Positions 27,728 through 45,139 of a stretch of DNA of 64,000 nucleotides are shown one piece after another. Position numbers and translations under genes: made by a program. How positions within the stretch are numbered: the first letter of the stretch is position 1; every line of letters starts with the position of its first letter. The notes below the pieces were generated by a model, which saw nothing but the letters and a program-made list of their open reading frames with translations, did not search any database and was not told the DNA's origin. Source of the DNA: Narcine bancroftii (taxonomy: Eukaryota); assembly GCF_036971445.1 (NCBI RefSeq), contig NC_091471.1, positions 250,232,001-250,296,000 on the forward strand, given 5' to 3'.

Positions 27728-30700
27728 GGGCCCGAGCCGGGGCTGTGGGGCCCGAGCCGGGGCTGTGGGGCCCGAGCCGGGGCTGTGGGGCCCGAGCCGG
27801 GGCTGTGGGGCCCGAGCCGGGGCTGTGGGGCCCGAGCCGGGGCTGTGGGGCCCGAGCCGGGGCTGTGGGGCCCGAGCCGGGGCTGTGGGGCCCGAGCCGG
27901 GGCTGTGGGGCCCGAGCCGGGGCTGTGGGGCCCGAGCCGGGGCTGTGGGGCCCGAGCCGGGGCTGTGGGGCCCGAGCCGGGGCTGTGGGGCCCGAGCCGG
28001 GGCTGTGGGGCCCGAGCCGGGGCTGTGGGGCCCGAGCCGGGGCTGTGGGGCCCGAGCCGGGGCTGTGGGGCCCGAGCCGGGGCTGTGGGGCCCGAGCCGG
28101 GGCTGTGGGGCCCGAGCCGGGGCTGTGGGGCCCGAGCCGGGGCTGTGGGGCCCGAGCCGGGGCTGTGGGGCCCGAGCCGGGGCTGTGGGGCCCGAGCCGG
28201 GGCTGTGGGGCCCGAGCCGGGGCTGTGGGGCCCGAGCCGGGGCTGTGGGGCCCGAGCCGGGGCTGTGGGGCCCGAGCCGGGGCTGTGGGGCCCGAGCCGG
28301 GGCTGTGGGGCCCGAGCCGGGGCTGTGGGGCCCGAGCCGGGGCTGTGGGGCCCGAGCCGGGGCTGTGGGGCCCGAGCCGGGGCTGTGGGGCCCGAGCCGG
28401 GGCTGTGGGGCCCGAGCCGGGGCTGTGGGGCCCGAGCCGGGGCTGTGGGGCCCGAGCCGGGGCTGTGGGGCCCGAGCCGGGGCTGTGGGGCCCGAGCCGG
28501 GGCTGTGGGGCCCGAGCCGGGGCTGTGGGGCCCGAGCCGGGGCTGTGGGGCCCGAGCCGGGGCTGTGGGGCCCGAGCCGGGGCTGTGGGGCCCGAGCCGG
28601 GGCTGTGGGGCCCGAGCCGGGGCTGTGGGGCCCGAGCCGGGGCTGTGGGGCCCGAGCCGGGGCTGTGGGGCCCGAGCCGGGGCTGTGGGGCCCGAGCCGG
28701 GGCTGTGGGGCCCGAGCCGGGGCTGTGGGGCCCGAGCCGGGGCTGTGGGGCCCGAGCCGGGGCTGTGGGGCCCGAGCCGGGGCTGTGGGGCCCGAGCCGG
28801 GGCTGTGGGGCCCGAGCCGGGGCTGTGGGGCCCGAGCCGGGGCTGTGGGGCCCGAGCCGGGGCTGTGGGGCCCGAGCCGGGGCTGTGGGGCCCGAGCCGG
28901 GGCTGTGGGGCCCGAGCCGGGGCTGTGGGGCCCGAGCCGGGGCTGTGGGGCCCGAGCCGGGGCTGTGGGGCCCGAGCCGGGGCTGTGGGGCCCGAGCCGG
29001 GGCTGTGGGGCCCGAGCCGGGGCTGTGGGGCCCGAGCCGGGGCTGTGGGGCCCGAGCCGGGGCTGTGGGGCCCGAGCCGGGGCTGTGGGGCCCGAGCCGG
29101 GGCTGTGGGGCCCGAGCCGGGGCTGTGGGGCCCGAGCCGGGGCTGTGGGGCCCGAGCCGGGGCTGTGGGGCCCGAGCCGGGGCTGTGGGGCCCGAGCCGG
29201 GGCTGTGGGGCCCGAGCCGGGGCTGTGGGGCCCGAGCCGGGGCTGTGGGGCCCGAGCCGGGGCTGTGGGGCCCGAGCCGGGGCTGTGGGGCCCGAGCCGG
29301 GGCTGTGGGGCCCGAGCCGGGGCTGTGGGGCCCGAGCCGGGGCTGTGGGGCCCGAGCCGGGGCTGTGGGGCCCGAGCCGGGGCTGTGGGGCCCGAGCCGG
29401 GGCTGTGGGGCCCGAGCCGGGGCTGTGGGGCCCGAGCCGGGGCTGTGGGGCCCGAGCCGGGGCTGTGGGGCCCGAGCCGGGGCTGTGGGGCCCGAGCCGG
29501 GGCTGTGGGGCCCGAGCCGGGGCTGTGGGGCCCGAGCCGGGGCTGTGGGGCCCGAGCCGGGGCTGTGGGGCCCGAGCCGGGGCTGTGGGGCCCGAGCCGG
29601 GGCTGTGGGGCCCGAGCCGGGGCTGTGGGGCCCGAGCCGGGGCTGTGGGGCCCGAGCCGGGGCTGTGGGGCCCGAGCCGGGGCTGTGGGGCCCGAGCCGG
29701 GGCTGTGGGGCCCGAGCCGGGGCTGTGGGGCCCGAGCCGGGGCTGTGGGGCCCGAGCCGGGGCTGTGGGGCCCGAGCCGGGGCTGTGGGGCCCGAGCCGG
29801 GGCTGTGGGGCCCGAGCCGGGGCTGTGGGGCCCGAGCCGGGGCTGTGGGGCCCGAGCCGGGGCTGTGGGGCCCGAGCCGGGGCTGTGGGGCCCGAGCCGG
29901 GGCTGTGGGGCCCGAGCCGGGGCTGTGGGGCCCGAGCCGGGGCTGTGGGGCCCGAGCCGGGGCTGTGGGGCCCGAGCCGGGGCTGTGGGGCCCGAGCCGG
30001 GGCTGTGGGGCCCGAGCCGGGGCTGTGGGGCCCGAGCCGGGGCTGTGGGGCCCGAGCCGGGGCTGTGGGGCCCGAGCCGGGGCTGTGGGGCCCGAGCCGG
30101 GGCTGTGGGGCCCGAGCCGGGGCTGTGGGGCCCGAGCCGGGGCTGTGGGGCCCGAGCCGGGGCTGTGGGGCCCGAGCCGGGGCTGTGGGGCCCGAGCCGG
30201 GGCTGTGGGGCCCGAGCCGGGGCTGTGGGGCCCGAGCCGGGGCTGTGGGGCCCGAGCCGGGGCTGTGGGGCCCGAGCCGGGGCTGTGGGGCCCGAGCCGG
30301 GGCTGTGGGGCCCGAGCCGGGGCTGTGGGGCCCGAGCCGGGGCTGTGGGGCCCGAGCCGGGGCTGTGGGGCCCGAGCCGGGGCTGTGGGGCCCGAGCCGG
30401 GGCTGTGGGGCCCGAGCCGGGGCTGTGGGGCCCGAGCCGGGGCTGTGGGGCCCGAGCCGGGGCTGTGGGGCCCGAGCCGGGGCTGTGGGGCCCGAGCCGG
30501 GGCTGTGGGGCCCGAGCCGGGGCTGTGGGGCCCGAGCCGGGGCTGTGGGGCCCGAGCCGGGGCTGTGGGGCCCGAGCCGGGGCTGTGGGGCCCGAGCCGG
30601 GGCTGTGGGGCCCGAGCCGGGGCTGTGGGGCCCGAGCCGGGGCTGTGGGGCCCGAGCCGGGGCTGTGGGGCCCGAGCCGGGGCTGTGGGGCCCGAGCCGG

Positions 30701-32050
30701 GGCTGTGGGGCCCGAGCCGGGGCTGTGGGGCCCGAGCCGGGGCTGTGGGGCCCGAGCCGGGGCTGTGGGGCCCGAGCCGGGGCTGTGGGGCCCGAGCCGG
30801 GGCTGTGGGGCCCGAGCCGGGGCTGTGGGGCCCGAGCCGGGGCTGTGGGGCCCGAGCCGGGGCTGTGGGGCCCGAGCCGGGGCTGTGGGGCCCGAGCCGG
30901 GGCTGTGGGGCCCGAGCCGGGGCTGTGGGGCCCGAGCCGGGGCTGTGGGGCCCGAGCCGGGGCTGTGGGGCCCGAGCCGGGGCTGTGGGGCCCGAGCCGG
31001 GGCTGTGGGGCCCGAGCCGGGGCTGTGGGGCCCGAGCCGGGGCTGTGGGGCCCGAGCCGGGGCTGTGGGGCCCGAGCCGGGGCTGTGGGGCCCGAGCCGG
31101 GGCTGTGGGGCCCGAGCCGGGGCTGTGGGGCCCGAGCCGGGGCTGTGGGGCCCGAGCCGGGGCTGTGGGGCCCGAGCCGGGGCTGTGGGGCCCGAGCCGG
31201 GGCTGTGGGGCCCGAGCCGGGGCTGTGGGGCCCGAGCCGGGGCTGTGGGGCCCGAGCCGGGGCTGTGGGGCCCGAGCCGGGGCTGTGGGGCCCGAGCCGG
31301 GGCTGTGGGGCCCGAGCCGGGGCTGTGGGGCCCGAGCCGGGGCTGTGGGGCCCGAGCCGGGGCTGTGGGGCCCGAGCCGGGGCTGTGGGGCCCGAGCCGG
31401 GGCTGTGGGGCCCGAGCCGGGGCTGTGGGGCCCGAGCCGGGGCTGTGGGGCCCGAGCCGGGGCTGTGGGGCCCGAGCCGGGGCTGTGGGGCCCGAGCCGG
31501 GGCTGTGGGGCCCGAGCCGGGGCTGTGGGGCCCGAGCCGGGGCTGTGGGGCCCGAGCCGGGGCTGTGGGGCCCGAGCCGGGGCTGTGGGGCCCGAGCCGG
31601 GGCTGTGGGGCCCGAGCCGGGGCTGTGGGGCCCGAGCCGGGGCTGTGGGGCCCGAGCCGGGGCTGTGGGGCCCGAGCCGGGGCTGTGGGGCCCGAGCCGG
31701 GGCTGTGGGGCCCGAGCCGGGGCTGTGGGGCCCGAGCCGGGGCTGTGGGGCCCGAGCCGGGGCTGTGGGGCCCGAGCCGGGGCTGTGGGGCCCGAGCCGG
31801 GGCTGTGGGGCCCGAGCCGGGGCTGTGGGGCCCGAGCCGGGGCTGTGGGGCCCGAGCCGGGGCTGTGGGGCCCGAGCCGGGGCTGTGGGGCCCGAGCCGG
31901 GGCTGTGGGGCCCGAGCCGGGGCTGTGGGGCCCGAGCCGGGGCTGTGGGGCCCGAGCCGGGGCTGTGGGGCCCGAGCCGGGGCTGTGGGGCCCGAGCCGG
32001 GGCTGTGGGGCCCGAGCCGGGGCTGTGGGGCCCGAGCCGGGGCTGTGGGG
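27728..32050. repeat. Homogeneous 20-bp minisatellite (GGGCCCGAGCCGGGGCTGTG)n, ~216 copies, in DNM2 intron 17
   Basis: Identical 60-nt lines from 27781 to 32040; no variant unit seen. Confidence 0.99.
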
Positions 32051-34596: not shown

Positions 34597-34821
34597 CCCG
34601 CGACCTCAGCGCCGGCCACACCCAGTAATGGGAATGCCCAGCAGACCACCCGGGGTGCGAGGGCCAACCCCGGGCCCCCCGTTGATTCCCACCCCGGTAC
34701 AGGGATTTGGAGCCCCTCCTATCCCGTCGAGGCCTGCTCCCATGAACGACGGTTTTGGAGCCCCACCTCAGATTCCCTCCCGGCCGGCACGGATTCCACC
34801 TGGACCCCCGGGACTGCCCAG
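34597..34821 (+). CDS. DNM2: Dynamin-2 exon 20 (proline-rich domain), 225 nt
   Basis: tcag|C..AG|gtaag; [53 protein letters not shown]. Confidence 0.95.
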
Positions 34822-37846: not shown

Positions 37847-39377
37847 CCCCCAGCCTGGAGTCGCTCTGCCCCCCAGCCTGGAGTCGCTCTGCCCCCCAGC
37901 CTGGAGTCGCTCTGCCCCCCAGCCTGGAGTCGCTCTGCCCCCCAGCCTGGAGTCGCTCTGCCCCCCAGCCTGGAGTCGCTCTGCCCCCCAGCCTGGAGTC
38001 GCTCTGCCCCCCAGCCTGGAGTCGCTCTGCCCCCCAGCCTGGAGTCGCTCTGCCCCCCAGCCTGGAGTCGCTCTGCCCCCCAGCCTGGAGTCGCTCTGCC
38101 CCCCAGCCTGGAGTCGCTCTGCCCCCCAGCCTGGAGTCGCTCTGCCCCCCAGCCTGGAGTCGCTCTGCCCCCCAGCCTGGAGTCGCTCTGCCCCCCAGCC
38201 TGGAGTCGCTCTGCCCCCCAGCCTGGAGTCGCTCTGCCCCCCAGCCTGGAGTCGCTCTGCCCCCCAGCCTGGAGTCGCTCTGCCCCCCAGCCTGGAGTCG
38301 CTCTGCCCCCCAGCCTGGAGTCGCTCTGCCCCCCAGCCTGGAGTCGCTCTGCCCCCCAGCCTGGAGTCGCTCTGCCCCCCAGCCTGGAGTCGCTCTGCCC
38401 CCCAGCCTGGAGTCGCTCTGCCCCCCAGCCTGGAGTCGCTCTGCCCCCCAGCCTGGAGTCGCTCTGCCCCCCAGCCTGGAGTCGCTCTGCCCCCCAGCCT
38501 GGAGTCGCTCTGCCCCCCAGCCTGGAGTCGCTCTGCCCCCCAGCCTGGAGTCGCTCTGCCCCCCAGCCTGGAGTCGCTCTGCCCCCCAGCCTGGAGTCGC
38601 TCTGCCCCCCAGCCTGGAGTCGCTCTGCCCCCCAGCCTGGAGTCGCTCTGCCCCCCAGCCTGGAGTCGCTCTGCCCCCCAGCCTGGAGTCGCTCTGCCCC
38701 CCAGCCTGGAGTCGCTCTGCCCCCCAGCCTGGAGTCGCTCTGCCCCCCAGCCTGGAGTCGCTCTGCCCCCCAGCCTGGAGTCGCTCTGCCCCCCAGCCTG
38801 GAGTCGCTCTGCCCCCCAGCCTGGAGTCGCTCTGCCCCCCAGCCTGGAGTCGCTCTGCCCCCCAGCCTGGAGTCGCTCTGCCCCCCAGCCTGGAGTCGCT
38901 CTGCCCCCCAGCCTGGAGTCGCTCTGCCCCCCAGCCTGGAGTCGCTCTGCCCCCCAGCCTGGAGTCGCTCTGCCCCCCAGCCTGGAGTCGCTCTGCCCCC
39001 CAGCCTGGAGTCGCTCTGCCCCCCAGCCTGGAGTCGCTCTGCCCCCCAGCCTGGAGTCGCTCTGCCCCCCAGCCTGGAGTCGCTCTGCCCCCCAGCCTGG
39101 AGTCGCTCTGCCCCCCAGCCTGGAGTCGCTCTGCCCCCCAGCCTGGAGTCGCTCTGCCCCCCAGCCTGGAGTCGCTCTGCCCCCCAGCCTGGAGTCGCTC
39201 TGCCCCCCAGCCTGGAGTCGCTCTGCCCCCCAGCCTGGAGTCGCTCTGCCCCCCAGCCTGGAGTCGCTCTGCCCCCCAGCCTGGAGTCGCTCTGCCCCCC
39301 AGCCTGGAGTCGCTCTGCCCCCCAGCCTGGAGTCGCTCTGCCCCCCAGCCTGGAGTCGCTCTGCCCCCCAGCCTGGA
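37847..39377. repeat. Homogeneous 23-bp minisatellite (CCCCCCAGCCTGGAGTCGCTCTG)n, ~66 copies, in DNM2 intron 20
   Basis: 23-nt period, no variant unit seen; GGATCC at both edges. Confidence 0.98.
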
Positions 39378-39513
39378 TCCAGGATAATCCTCCACACCTG
39401 ATCCATGTTGTGCGCACACCCTGGTGCTCTGTGTGACAGAGAGAAGTGCCCATGCAGGCAGCAGCTCTGTACTCCGGATGTGCCAGTGTTGTTGAAATGA
39501 ACCCTGATTTTTC

Positions 39514-39596
39514 TCCTACCTCTTCCTGTTATATTGACCCACGTTTTTGTTTTTTTTCCTACCTCTTCCTGTTATATTGACCCACGTTTTTGTTTT
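39514..39596. repeat. 43-bp-period tandem duplication in the branch point/pyrimidine region of the last intron
   Basis: TCCTACCTCTTCCTGTTATATTGACCCACGTTTTTGTTTT occurs at 39514 and 39557. Confidence 0.85.
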
Positions 39597-39607
39597 GTCT
39601 CCCTCAG

Positions 39608-41835: not shown

Positions 41836-41841
41836 AATAAA
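41836..41841 (+). terminator. DNM2: Candidate poly(A) signal for the DNM2 exon-21 isoform
   Basis: AATAAA followed by a GT/T-rich stretch ~2.2 kb after the stop; a second AATAAA near 41908. Confidence 0.45.
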
Positions 41842-42261
41842 GGGATCGACTGTAGAAGGAGCTTCCCTGGTGTCTCTGTTTCCTTTTTCTGGCTTTGCGG
41901 TCTGGGAAATAAAATGGGAACCTTGCTGTTAGAGCTGGTGCAAGGGATGGTGAATTTTTAAAGAAAATGCTGGAAACGCACAGCATCTATAGGAGAAATA
42001 GTTTTATTTGTGTGGAAGGTTGGGAGTTGAGGTGAGGCATTTGTGCAACAGGAAAATGCTGTGAAGAAATATTCTGAATCCGGGTCTAGTGCTACTTACC
42101 TGGATGGGAATATTGAGGCTGTTGTGGACTGATCTTTTTCTAACTATCTCCACAATTACAACTTCCAGAAATGCATGGAAAATGTCAGTTATTACAGGAG
42201 TTATAAATATGTCTGGATCATCAGGCCATTGAGTCCATTGTGCCAGTGCTGCTATTTGTTA

Positions 42262-42580: not shown

Positions 42581-43027
42581 TAAGCTTCCCTGGGTCTTTA
42601 TCTTGATCTATCCTGTGGTTTGAGAACATCCTGCCATTGAAAAGGTTTTCATTTGTTCAGTTAAGTCCCTGAAATACATTTACAGAGCAGGCTACAAGTG
42701 TCCTCTTTCTGATGAATGCAGCAGATATGAAAATTTCTCCTTTTCCAAACATCTTCATTCTTTGTTTAGTCTTAACATTTTACATATACAGTCAATGTAC
42801 AGGCTACACAAATTCAGAATCTGCTTGACATCAGTAAATATGAACGATTGCCCTGGCACTTGTGGGTTCAGCATCTTGGGAAGTACCTCCATTGTGGGAA
42901 GTGGCAGCTTTCTTTTCCGGCAATGAAAAGCGTTCTCTAGGTGCATCCTATGACTGTCATAGGTGTTTATTCCAAATCCAGAGTCCCTTCTGTTGTTATT
43001 AACATTCATCTTTTCTCTTGTGTCTAG

Positions 43028-43295
43028 GCGTCCACCTCCAGCAGTACCATCAAAATCTGGCTGTTTTATCTGTAATCATTGGTACTGTGAATACTTTAGC
43101 TCCAGATCCTCAGCTCCCTGCACACAATGCTTCAATGAGGCTGTTAACAAATATGCTCCAAGAATCCGGGGACATCTTTCTGATTGTGTCGTTGCTCTTT
43201 CATCTCATTTTAAAGGATTGGTTGGGTCAAATGTGATCTCAAACTGCAAATTTGATAGAATTGAACAATGGGGTTTGCCTGTACAATATTTATAG
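43028..43295 (+). CDS. DNM2: Candidate alternative terminal exon of dynamin-2 (RRPPPAVPSK...)
   Basis: Strong acceptor tcttttctcttgtgtctag|G in the phase that matches exon 20; reads (R)RPPPAVPSKSGC..., open to TAG at 43295; AATAAA at 44070. Confidence 0.6.
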
Positions 43296-44506
43296 ATCAA
43301 TCAACTTGGAACCGGGATCCATTTAGAAACTGAAGTGGATCTTCCTAGGACAGGTTGGTTGAAGGGTTCTAGAGTTCATGATTTTTCTTAATGGGGTTTT
43401 AATATAGAAAAAAAATCAATCAATGGATGGACAAATTAATTGTATCCTGGACATTTCCTTCTTCCAGCTGCTCACCCCTTCCTATCAGAGTGTATCTTCC
43501 TCAGCCTGCTACTACTACTTCCAATCACCTACCTTACTACTCCCCCAACCCATCACCTGCCATCTAGTATTCCTCCCCTCCACCCCTTTATTCAGGCTCC
43601 ATCAGGAACAGAACAAAAAGGCAGAAGGATTTCAGCCTGAAATGCTATCTTTTGCCTTCCATGGATGGTACCTGACCTGCTATTCCCCCAGTTTGAGGGC
43701 TGAGGCAGTTAAATCACTGTAAGGACATTTTTTAGCCAGGAAAGCATTCAGTTCACATCATTGAGCAGTGGTATTACAAACCAGTTGTTATTCTTGTGGA
43801 CATGAAAGATAGTTTTCTTTGCCCATCACTCCGCTCCCACCAGACTGAGGTTCACATCAGCTCCTGAACCTCGGCAGGAACAAAGCACAATTAAGATTTC
43901 CTCGCCCTCAAATGTCTTCTCCAGCCCTTGGGTAAATGGAAGTTATCCTCCACAATCTTCAAGCATGAGGCCACTGGGACCCTTTCGCCACTGGGCGCAC
44001 ATGAGTTTCACTCTCCTCCCCTCTGCCTGTGGCCTTGCCTTCTCTATATTTTGCTTGTAAAAGATCATGAATAAAATGTATATATGGGATGGTTTGTGAG
44101 AGAGACGTGTGCATTCCTTATCTTTTGATTTTGATGCAAAGTTTCAGGAACTGCAGCAAACTTTGTTCAATCTCTCTCTCTTAACTTCTATCCCTTGAAT
44201 GTTACTGTCCACCTCATTAAAACTGCCCTGCAGGTTTTGGACTGGGTTACAACATTTAAACTGCTATTTTCATGCAATTTAAAGGACACAGGGATATGAT
44301 AATAACCACGTATAGTTGTTATTTTCTTGACCCTCTTCCATTGGGCACTAGGTTAATTCCTGTTAAATTCTAACCACACTGGCTTTAAATATTTCAATCC
44401 ACTCCCCAGCTCCTTTCACTCAATTGCAGCATTACCTTAATTCCACATCCTCTGCATTGATAAAAATCTAATTCACTCCATTGCATTTCCTAAATCAAAT
44501 TAACTC

Positions 44507-44577
44507 TTTATTTAATGATACCCTGCACTTGCGTGGGATGAACTTCCTGACTTCCAGAATCTAATCCTGAGTTTATT
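44507..44577 (-). terminator. TMED1: Candidate poly(A) signals of TMED1
   Basis: TTTATT on the + strand at 44507 and 44572, 200-270 nt beyond the TMED1 stop. Confidence 0.45.
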
Positions 44578-44777
44578 AACCATAAACATGCAGATGTCAA
44601 AATACATACTTGGTATTCTGTGAAAGCATCCTTGTACAGTCAGTACATCCCTCTCACCTTAATCCTTCAATATCCCAACCAACCCCCAGAAAATCCATCA
44701 TACCCCAAACCAAGGGAATAGGCTGCATCTGGCCAGCCCGCCAGTTCTTGCCTCTGCTTCAACTTAAGTTTCTTAAA

Positions 44778-44996
44778 TTAGGTCTGTACTTTTCTCCGGT
44801 CATCAAAGAGGCTTTTCAACATGTAGACCTGGATAAACGACACCACCAACATCACCCCCAGATTGACAGCCGACCAAAAGTTCACTCGTCCCAAATTGCC
44901 CTCCTGCAGGTTCCGATCCCGTGCCTCGAAGGCTCGGAGAGTGGCCTGTATCTGCATGCTCTTTCCCAACTTGCTGTTCATGTTCCCAATCGCCTC
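44778..44996 (-). CDS. TMED1: TMED1 (p24 gamma family) last exon, 219 nt
   Basis: ctcag|GAG..; EAIGNMNSKLGKSMQIQATLRAFEARDRNLQEGNLGRVNFWSAVNLGVMLVVSFIQVYMLKSLFDDRRKVQT*; convergent with DNM2 as in mammals. Confidence 0.92.
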   Translation of the reverse strand, partial: EAIGNMNSKLGKSMQIQATLRAFEARDRNLQEGNLGRVNFWSAVNLGVMLVVSFIQVYMLKSLFDDRRKVQT

Positions 44997-45139
44997 CTGA
45001 GAAATGAGTGAGCGACAGTCAGGGTGAATGAGGGGTGGGAACTCTGCGCAGCAATCAATCTATTCCATTGTATTTCTCCCCCATTCGGCAGTGTGTGGGG
45101 AGAGTGGTAGGTGATCACAGGACAGGTGAAATTTCAACA

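What the first reader, a model, noticed from the sequence alone, without database searches (positions are those of the whole stretch)
42995..44075. Candidate second terminal exon giving DNM2 a DNM3-like C-terminus
About 3.3 kb past the canonical stop and beyond its AATAAA signals, a strong acceptor in the correct phase yields ..GLP-RRPPPAVPSK. This resembles both exon 21 (RRPPAAP) and the alternative DNM3 tail as I recall it (RRPPPAVPGRPS). It has its own AATAAA at 44070. I know of no such exon in mammalian DNM2, so it may be an ancestral duplicated last exon retained here. The frame runs ~89 codons with a Cys-rich stretch (CFICNHWYC..CTQC), either a novel tail or the result of stop loss.
Basis: partly seen in the sequence, partly recalled or inferred. 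Interest (0 to 1): 0.7.

Follow-up and report, generated by a model that had tools for sequence, protein, structure and literature searches.

The report
Ancient dynamin-2 tail exon, stop lost
This is an old alternative ending of the dynamin-2 gene, also present in gene records of sharks, frogs, turtles and mammals; in this electric ray it lacks the usual stop codon, so if used it would add 76 extra, likely non-functional, residues.

Summary
The exon is real and old. An acceptor at 43026-27 joins exon 20 in phase and reads RRPPPAVPSKSGC, the best of 4233 AG sites against the shark DNM2 short tail RRPPPAVPSRPGY. 36 of 224 DNM2-type records carry such a tail: 11 sharks/rays, 10 frogs, 3 turtles, 12 mammals. 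So the idea that mammals lack it is wrong. DNM3 of the same genome has the twin exon, RRPPPAVPGRPTS*, 3.5 kb behind a decayed long-tail exon; DNM2's spacing is 3.4 kb. Both exons therefore likely predate the DNM2/DNM3 split. All 36 relatives stop after 10-14 residues; here the frame runs 76 codons further. RNA-type contigs show the same letters, so it is no assembly slip. The run-on has no homologue, family or confident fold, although two CxxC pairs are uncommon (6 of 725 control frames). Splicing to it in this species was not shown. Verdict: a database-annotated, little-discussed DNM2 tail exon with a lineage-specific stop loss, most likely a neutral run-on.

The parts
34597..34821 (+).
   Evidence: exon 20 plus exon 21 equal the end of RefSeq model XP_069783643.1
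39608..39677 (+). Canonical long-tail last exon, coding part (S)RRPPAAPHRPTIIRTAEHSLLD*, NAGNAG acceptor 39608/39611
   Evidence: exon 20 letters joined to it in contigs of 4 of 4 runs
41836..41913 (+). Two AATAAA hexamers (41836, 41908), likely poly(A) signals of the long-tail mRNA
   Evidence: use not shown; the main contig of run X4 ends at 42183
42966..42971 (-). AATAAA on the minus strand, likely distal poly(A) signal of the convergent p24-family gene, whose long 3' UTR would cover the candidate exon antisense
   Evidence: a contig of run X4 starts at 42964 and runs on into the p24 exon; contigs give no strand
42999..43027 (+). Branch-point-like motif, polypyrimidine tract and AG acceptor of the short-tail exon
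43028..43064 (+). Conserved short-tail coding part, (R)RPPPAVPSKSGC; 10 of 13 residues match the shark tail and 10 of 13 the Mobula hypostoma tail
43065..43295 (+). Run-on of 76 codons plus TAG; codon 43065-67 (TTT) stands where relatives stop; CxxC-x15-CxxC spans residues 12-34 of the exon frame
   Evidence: letters confirmed by contigs
44070..44075 (+). AATAAA, candidate poly(A) signal of the short-tail exon
   Evidence: use not shown
44781..45059 (-). Open frame holding the last coding exon of a p24/EMP24_GP25L gene (TMED1 by synteny, inferred), tail to tail with DNM2
   Evidence: synteny in PMC3572173

Best explanation
43028 begins the short-tail alternative last exon of DNM2, an exon recorded in sharks, rays, frogs, turtles and mammals and twinned in DNM3; in this electric ray it lacks the stop codon that relatives have, is likely still spliced as a minor form, and its 76-residue run-on is likely neutral former 3' UTR. 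Mechanism: exon 20 splices either to the near acceptor (39608/39611; 22-23-residue tail; junction shown) or, when transcription runs past the upstream poly(A) signals before cleavage, to the far acceptor at 43028, ending at 44070 (inferred from anatomy and from relatives' records). In relatives this swaps the long tail for a 10-14-residue one right beside the last SH3-binding motif, which by analogy with dynamin 1 tails would tune SH3-partner choice (inferred). Here the short form would instead end in 89 residues; the SH3-type motif is kept, the conserved aromatic end is no longer the C-terminus. Odds of the steps: ancient exon 0.97; extension due to stop loss 0.93; still spliced here about 0.7; run-on without selected function about 0.85.
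For: Exon identity: best of 4233 AG sites against shark and Mobula tails (55, 56), 0 of 18,939 controls as high. 36 of 224 DNM2-type records have the short tail, all 10-14 residues; 11 of 74 shark/ray DNM2 records, from 8 named species, all 13 residues ending GY. A tree places five short-tail shark/ray proteins named 'dynamin-3' inside DNM2 (support 99/97 and 100/99). A degenerate pattern hits only 2 places in 3.3 Gb, this one by design and one in DNM3 (control 0). DNM3 has the same order long-then-short at 3503 bases against 3420 here. Still in use (indirect): acceptor intact and first 9 residues identical to sharks, whereas the dead-looking long exons of DNM3 and DNM1 in this genome carry stops and share 35 of 70 bases with exon 21; RefSeq numbering for this species (X7 = 898 aa, X8 = 895 aa, both long-tail with a 36-residue N-terminal extra) leaves at least three higher-numbered slots that a 965/961-residue run-on form would fill. 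Neutral run-on: a run of 76 codons or more follows 4.6% of random codons in 438,314 control positions; no scoring protein among 15 candidates; one repeat-protein hit at 32% identity among 1.84 billion; Pfam hits below cut-off; single copy in the genome; pLDDT 52.8; no PDB match at E <= 0.001.
Against: Use in this species rests on relatives and on indirect hints; the six RefSeq models X1-X6 were not among the 15 of 76 cluster members listed, and X numbers are not strictly ordered by length in four other species. Contigs of 4 of 4 runs bridge the acceptor unspliced. Two of the last four conserved residues and the stop differ from the nearest relatives, as decay would also give. Against neutrality: two CxxC pairs occur in only 6 of 725 control open frames, 4 of 725 at a spacing of 10-25, and 7 or more Cys in 26 of 725; the feature was picked after the fact. 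No DNA of another ray was available, so the change that removed the stop and its age are unknown. No short-tail record was seen for skates (14 of 14 members long-tailed), teleosts (8 records) or humans in this sample.
Confidence: 0.58

Rival explanations
1. The exon is dead in this lineage: the acceptor is no longer chosen, the stop was lost by drift, and the DNA is transcribed only as 3' UTR of DNM2 or, antisense, of the p24 neighbour. This would mirror DNM3, which kept the short exon and let the long one decay.
For: Stop loss plus two residue changes; decayed long-tail exons with stops in DNM3 (C11:68698070) and DNM1 (C1:190640402) show such decay in this genome; contigs of 4 of 4 runs bridge the acceptor unspliced, and the X4 contig starts 2 bases from a minus-strand AATAAA.
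Against: Acceptor and the first 9 residues are intact, far better kept than the two decayed exons; short-tail forms are a minority of records in all relatives (36 of 224), so low abundance is expected; RefSeq numbering hint.
Confidence: 0.25
2. The run-on has been co-opted: electric-ray DNM2 has a selected 89-residue tail whose CxxC-x15-CxxC binds zinc or is lipidated, giving a new targeting or interaction module.
For: Two CxxC pairs in 6 of 725 control frames; run-on length in the top 5%; AlphaFold2 draws a hairpin and helix over residues 11-42 with block pLDDT 57-70; weak B-box zinc-domain hit, E 0.12.
Against: Post-hoc feature; Pfam score 12.6 against a cut-off of 27; no homologue; no fold match; the other four of five models score under 48 pLDDT; absent from 11 of 11 shark/ray short-tail records.
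Confidence: 0.11
3. The lost stop is an assembly error or a private allele, or the exon is internal and splices on before the run-on.
For: The site sits in a short T run; the runs that confirm it come from one study and may be the genome's source.
Against: 0 differing letters in contigs of 3 of 3 covering runs (X5 did not cover it); no GT/GC site in 43028-43300 matched 6 or more of 9 donor-consensus letters.
Confidence: 0.06

Closest known systems
DNM2 short-tail isoforms in public records (shark RRPPPAVPSRPGY, e.g. XP_078387373.1, XP_067877476.1; mouse RRPPPLAPARPFF, AAH10233.1; frog RRPPPTAPAKPQFW)
   Same: Same gene, same junction after exon 20, same RRPPP-x-x-P start; 10 of 13 residues identical to sharks.
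   Different: All 36 records stop after 10-14 residues, nearly all on an aromatic residue; here the frame runs 76 codons further.
DNM3 short tail (human isoform f NP_001337135.1, RRPPPAVPGRPS; shark/ray RRPPPAVPGRPTS)
   Same: Paralogous exon, same phase, same place about 3.5 kb behind the long-tail exon in this genome.
   Different: In sharks and rays it is the main DNM3 ending (31 of 45 records short, 0 long, 14 other) and keeps its stop; in DNM2 it is the minor ending.
Dynamin 1 tail variants Dyn1xA / Dyn1xB (PMC11329700, passages read)
   Same: Alternative tails begin at the same point after the last proline-rich motif and change the SH3 site beside the junction.
   Different: Different tail sequences; function shown for Dyn1xA (endophilin A1 binding, ultrafast endocytosis), none found for the DNM2 short tail in my searches. 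In Drosophila either tail rescued (bioRxiv 10.64898/2026.08.24.746809, abstract).
Stop-loss C-terminal extensions into 3' UTR (recalled, no call)
   Same: Conserved end followed by unconserved, single-copy, compositionally random sequence.
   Different: Here on a minor alternative exon overlapped by a neighbour's likely antisense UTR; the run-on is not hydrophobic overall (GRAVY -0.1).

Membership tests
Alternative last exon | Own 3' splice site downstream of the canonical last exon | tested here: met
   AG 43026-27, 80% pyrimidines, 42 AG-free bases, branch-point-like motif
Alternative last exon | In frame with the shared upstream exon | tested here: met
   phase-2 join gives the conserved peptide
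Alternative last exon | Own poly(A) signal | tested here: inconclusive
   AATAAA at 44070; contigs cannot show an RNA end
Alternative last exon | Spliced transcript in this species | tested here: inconclusive
   no junction contig in X1-X4, but contigs drop rare forms and tissues are not on record
Alternative last exon | Spliced product recorded for the orthologous exon | tested here: met
   36 of 224 DNM2-type protein records, mostly RefSeq models, one from a mouse cDNA-type accession
DNM2/DNM3 short-tail exon | Host gene is a DNM2 orthologue | tested here: met
   tree; p24 neighbour
DNM2/DNM3 short-tail exon | RRPPP-x-x-P motif at the junction, downstream of the long-tail exon | tested here: met
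DNM2/DNM3 short-tail exon | Stop after 10-14 residues | tested here: not met
   89 residues; TTT at the expected stop. It descends from this exon but no longer encodes a short tail
Zinc-binding CxxC domain (zinc ribbon / B-box) | Two CxxC pairs at workable spacing | tested here: met
   CFIC and CTQC 15 residues apart
Zinc-binding CxxC domain (zinc ribbon / B-box) | Profile or fold match to a known family | tested here: not met
   Pfam 12.6 bits against cut-off 27; no PDB match, on a low-confidence model
Zinc-binding CxxC domain (zinc ribbon / B-box) | Cysteines conserved in relatives | tested here: inconclusive
   not coding in 8 shark/ray species with records; no other electric ray could be read (run X5 did not cover it)
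Zinc-binding CxxC domain (zinc ribbon / B-box) | Metal binding | not testable with these tools
   needs the expressed peptide

The most novel reading that the evidence does not exclude
Electric rays turned the ancient 13-residue dynamin-2 tail into an 89-residue one by losing a stop, recruiting 3' UTR that overlaps the neighbour's antisense UTR into a new CxxC-x15-CxxC zinc-binding or lipidated module: a de novo domain on a core endocytic GTPase, in the lineage with the electric organ.
Probability: 0.11. Interest if true: 0.65.

Novelty: new variant of a known kind. Interest (0 to 1): 0.33.

Why it matters
Three papers on DNM2 isoforms that I read in passages (PMC9652393, PMC8583656, PMC5056991) list only exons 10a/b, 12b and 13b as alternative, yet a second last exon is on record from sharks to mammals and is paralogous to the DNM3 short tail. 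Since tail choice sets partner binding in dynamin 1 (PMC11329700), this DNM2 tail is a testable, overlooked variable in a disease gene. The ray genome adds a picture of divided inheritance: DNM2 keeps the long tail, DNM3 the short one, and DNM1 and DNM3 carry decayed long-tail exons. The stop loss itself matters little unless the run-on proves conserved and translated.

Tried and rejected
RNA: no RNA holder listed (five runs guessed as RNA). Contigs of X1-X4 show exon 20 joined to exon 21 (4 of 4) and no loose end at 43028 (one row hidden, X1, X2, X4, none hidden); contigs drop rare forms, so this shows no absence. Run X5 (another organism) did not cover 42780-43480. Homologue searches with the 88-residue frame: none scored; one hit, a Thr-rich repeat protein, rejected as a repeat artefact. 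ESM Atlas gave no result. Locus L002 (C21) is not a dynamin exon (2 stops). Repeat origin of the run-on: single match in the genome. Internal donor: none at 6 of 9 or better. Three cluster look-ups did not list the RefSeq models X1-X6. Paper searches for the peptides found nothing relevant: 'RRPPPAVP' 0, 'RRPPPSAPARPFF' 0, 'PARPFF' 2 unrelated; term searches searches gave 0, searches gave 23, 9 and 19 papers. Cao et al. 1998 (PMC25532), the classic list of dynamin splice forms, is not held; I recall that it lists several C-terminal variants, so the tail may be in print there. Sequences in figures and supplements were not searched. Earlier findings of the scan: none.

Full report
Gene and setting. 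The window holds the 3' part of a dynamin gene whose exons 20-21 are identical to the end of RefSeq dynamin-2 model XP_069783643.1, named Narcine bancroftii, an electric ray. A tree of 22 proteins places it with shark and tetrapod DNM2 (support 99/97), apart from DNM3 and the one DNM1 row. A p24-family gene ends tail to tail at 44781; DNM2 is flanked by TMED1 in human and zebrafish (PMC3572173, passages), so the name TMED1 is inferred.

Observation. Confirmed as described: donor at 34821 in phase 2; canonical last exon from 39608 or 39611 to TAA 39677; AATAAA at 41836 and 41908; candidate acceptor AG 43026-27; frame of 89 residues with the junction codon, TAG at 43293-95; AATAAA at 44070. Scored against the shark tail, the site is the best of 4233 AG sites in the window (55; next 35, exon 21) and above all 18,939 control sites (maximum 31).

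It is a conserved DNM2 exon. A search with exon 20 and cluster look-ups returned DNM2 proteins whose tails were tallied. Of 224 records with a DNM2-type exon-20 end, 36 carry a short tail: 11 from sharks and rays (RRPPPAVPSRPGY in six shark species, RRPPPAAPSR(S/F)GY in two Mobula), 10 from frogs, 3 from turtles, 12 from mammals (RRPPPSAPARPFF and variants; mouse RRPPPLAPARPFF, including AAH10233.1, an accession type I recall as cDNA-derived). All are 10-14 residues. The sample is limited: only the best 120 of 812 hits and up to 15 members per cluster were listed. No short tail was seen in skates (14 of 14 cluster members long), in 8 teleost records or in the human and Old World monkey records shown. 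Several shark and ray proteins are named 'dynamin-3' by their source but fall inside DNM2 in the tree.

It is the twin of the DNM3 tail. A degenerate pattern for acceptor plus peptide hits two places in 3.3 Gb, with 0 for the reversed control: this locus, by design, and C11:68694547-570. That one reads RRPPPAVPGRPTS* and belongs to the gene whose records are named dynamin 3a. Scanning 60 kb of the DNM3 locus found no intact long-tail exon but a remnant with a stop 3503 bases upstream of the short exon (score 34; 0 of 18,939 controls as high; 35 of 70 bases shared with exon 21, the final TAA aligned); the DNM2 spacing is 3420. DNM1 (C1) has its RITISDP* exon and also a long-tail remnant with an early stop (score 47). 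Among 45 shark/ray DNM3 records 31 end short, 0 long, 14 otherwise. Inference: long and short last exons both existed before DNM2 and DNM3 diverged and were later shared out unevenly.

The extension. Residues 1-9 are identical to sharks; then SKSGC stands for SRPGY, and TTT (43065-67) stands where 11 of 11 shark/ray records end. Contigs of X1 and X2 (whole stretch) and X4 (from 42964) show no differing letter over 42780-43480, so it is not an assembly slip, though these runs are from one study and may be the genome's source. A run-on of 76 codons or more follows 4.6% of random codons in control DNA. The run-on is single-copy, finds no scoring protein among longer proteins, one repeat-protein artefact among 1.84 billion, two Pfam hits far below cut-off, a single-sequence model of mean pLDDT 52.8 and no PDB match. 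Against this reading, two CxxC pairs occur in only 6 of 725 control frames of 77 codons, and 7 or more Cys in 26 of 725. The feature was chosen after the fact, so I give a selected tail about one chance in ten.

Is it used here? Not shown. Four runs guessed to be RNA hold the region; their contigs carry exon 20 joined to exon 21 in 4 of 4 and bridge the 43028 acceptor unspliced in 4 of 4. Contigs drop rare forms and tissues are not on record, so this does not show absence. The unspliced cover has a likely second source: in X4 a contig starts at 42964, two bases from a minus-strand AATAAA (42966-71), and continues into the p24 exon, as a long TMED1 3' UTR would; DNM2 and TMED1 are listed as a human sense-antisense pair in PMC2949395 (passages). 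In favour of use: the acceptor and motif are much better kept than the two decayed long exons. An indirect hint: this species' models X7 (898 aa) and X8 (895 aa) are the usual 862 and 859 plus a 36-residue N-terminal extra; the usual exon choices give at most four models of 898 or more, leaving three slots that a run-on form (898 - 22 + 89 = 965) would fill. X1-X6 were not listed in three look-ups, and numbering is not strictly by length elsewhere, so the hint is weak.

Mechanism. Shown: two acceptors in the same phase behind one donor, each followed by poly(A) hexamers; the near junction in contigs; the far junction in relatives' records. Inferred: choice between them by competition of splicing with upstream cleavage; change of the SH3-binding site beside the junction, by analogy with Dyn1xA/xB (PMC11329700, passages; the BIN1 SH3 domain binds DNM2 residues 823-860, PMC11245310, passages); in this ray a minor product with a tolerated, unselected extension. 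As the new stop is in the last exon, junction-triggered decay is not expected (established knowledge, no call). A Drosophila preprint found tail identity dispensable (10.64898/2026.08.24.746809, abstract), which fits weak constraint.

Novelty. The exon is annotated in public protein records, so it is not new. Passages of PMC9652393, PMC8583656 and PMC5056991 name only exons 10a/b, 12b and 13b as alternative in DNM2; passages of PMC9653092 and of a 2026 preprint on the DNM2 proline-rich domain (10.64898/2026.03.20.713161, abstract and passages) did not mention it; PMC13478751 held only a reference. Peptide searches found no relevant paper, but Cao et al. 1998 could not be read and figures and supplements were not searched. 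What appears new is the stop loss in this lineage and the view of reciprocal tail-exon decay across the three paralogues. Verdict: new variant of a known kind, interest 0.33.

Noticed in passing
G000:C11:68698070 (minus strand; in L011): Decayed long-tail exon of DNM3 with an in-frame stop, 3.5 kb upstream of the intact short-tail exon; no shark/ray DNM3 record of 45 ends with the long tail.
   Followed up: partly
G000:C1:190640402 (minus strand; in L019): Long-tail exon remnant in DNM1 with a kept NAGNAG acceptor and a stop after 9 residues, 6 kb past the RITISDP* exon; dead, or a shortened tail.
   Followed up: partly
G000:C11, DNM3 exon 20 (ends 68728654): The proline-rich domain of ray DNM3 is strongly eroded (shorter, most PSRP-type motifs gone) compared with sharks and tetrapods; the branch to ray DNM3 is long in the tree.
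   Followed up: no
window 42964-44781: Likely tail-to-tail overlap of DNM2 and p24/TMED1 3' UTRs; minus-strand AATAAA at 42966, 43587, 44507, 44572.
   Followed up: partly
window 27728-32050 and 37847-39377: Two intronic minisatellites with 100% identical units: 20 bases x 216 and 23 bases x 67; the second ends 230 bases before the exon 21 acceptor.
   Followed up: no
window 39508-39602: A 43-base tandem duplication covers the branch-point region of exon 21's acceptor; short contigs of 73 bases lie on it in 4 runs.
   Followed up: no
proteins P0001, P0003, P0005, P0007-P0010 and cluster members: Many shark and ray RefSeq proteins named 'dynamin-3' carry DNM2-type tails, and the five tested group with DNM2; some true DNM3 are named 'dynamin-2-like'.
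   Followed up: partly
proteins P0162, P0171: This species' DNM2 models start 36 residues upstream of the conserved MGNRG start (seen for P0162); the start lies outside the window.
   Followed up: no
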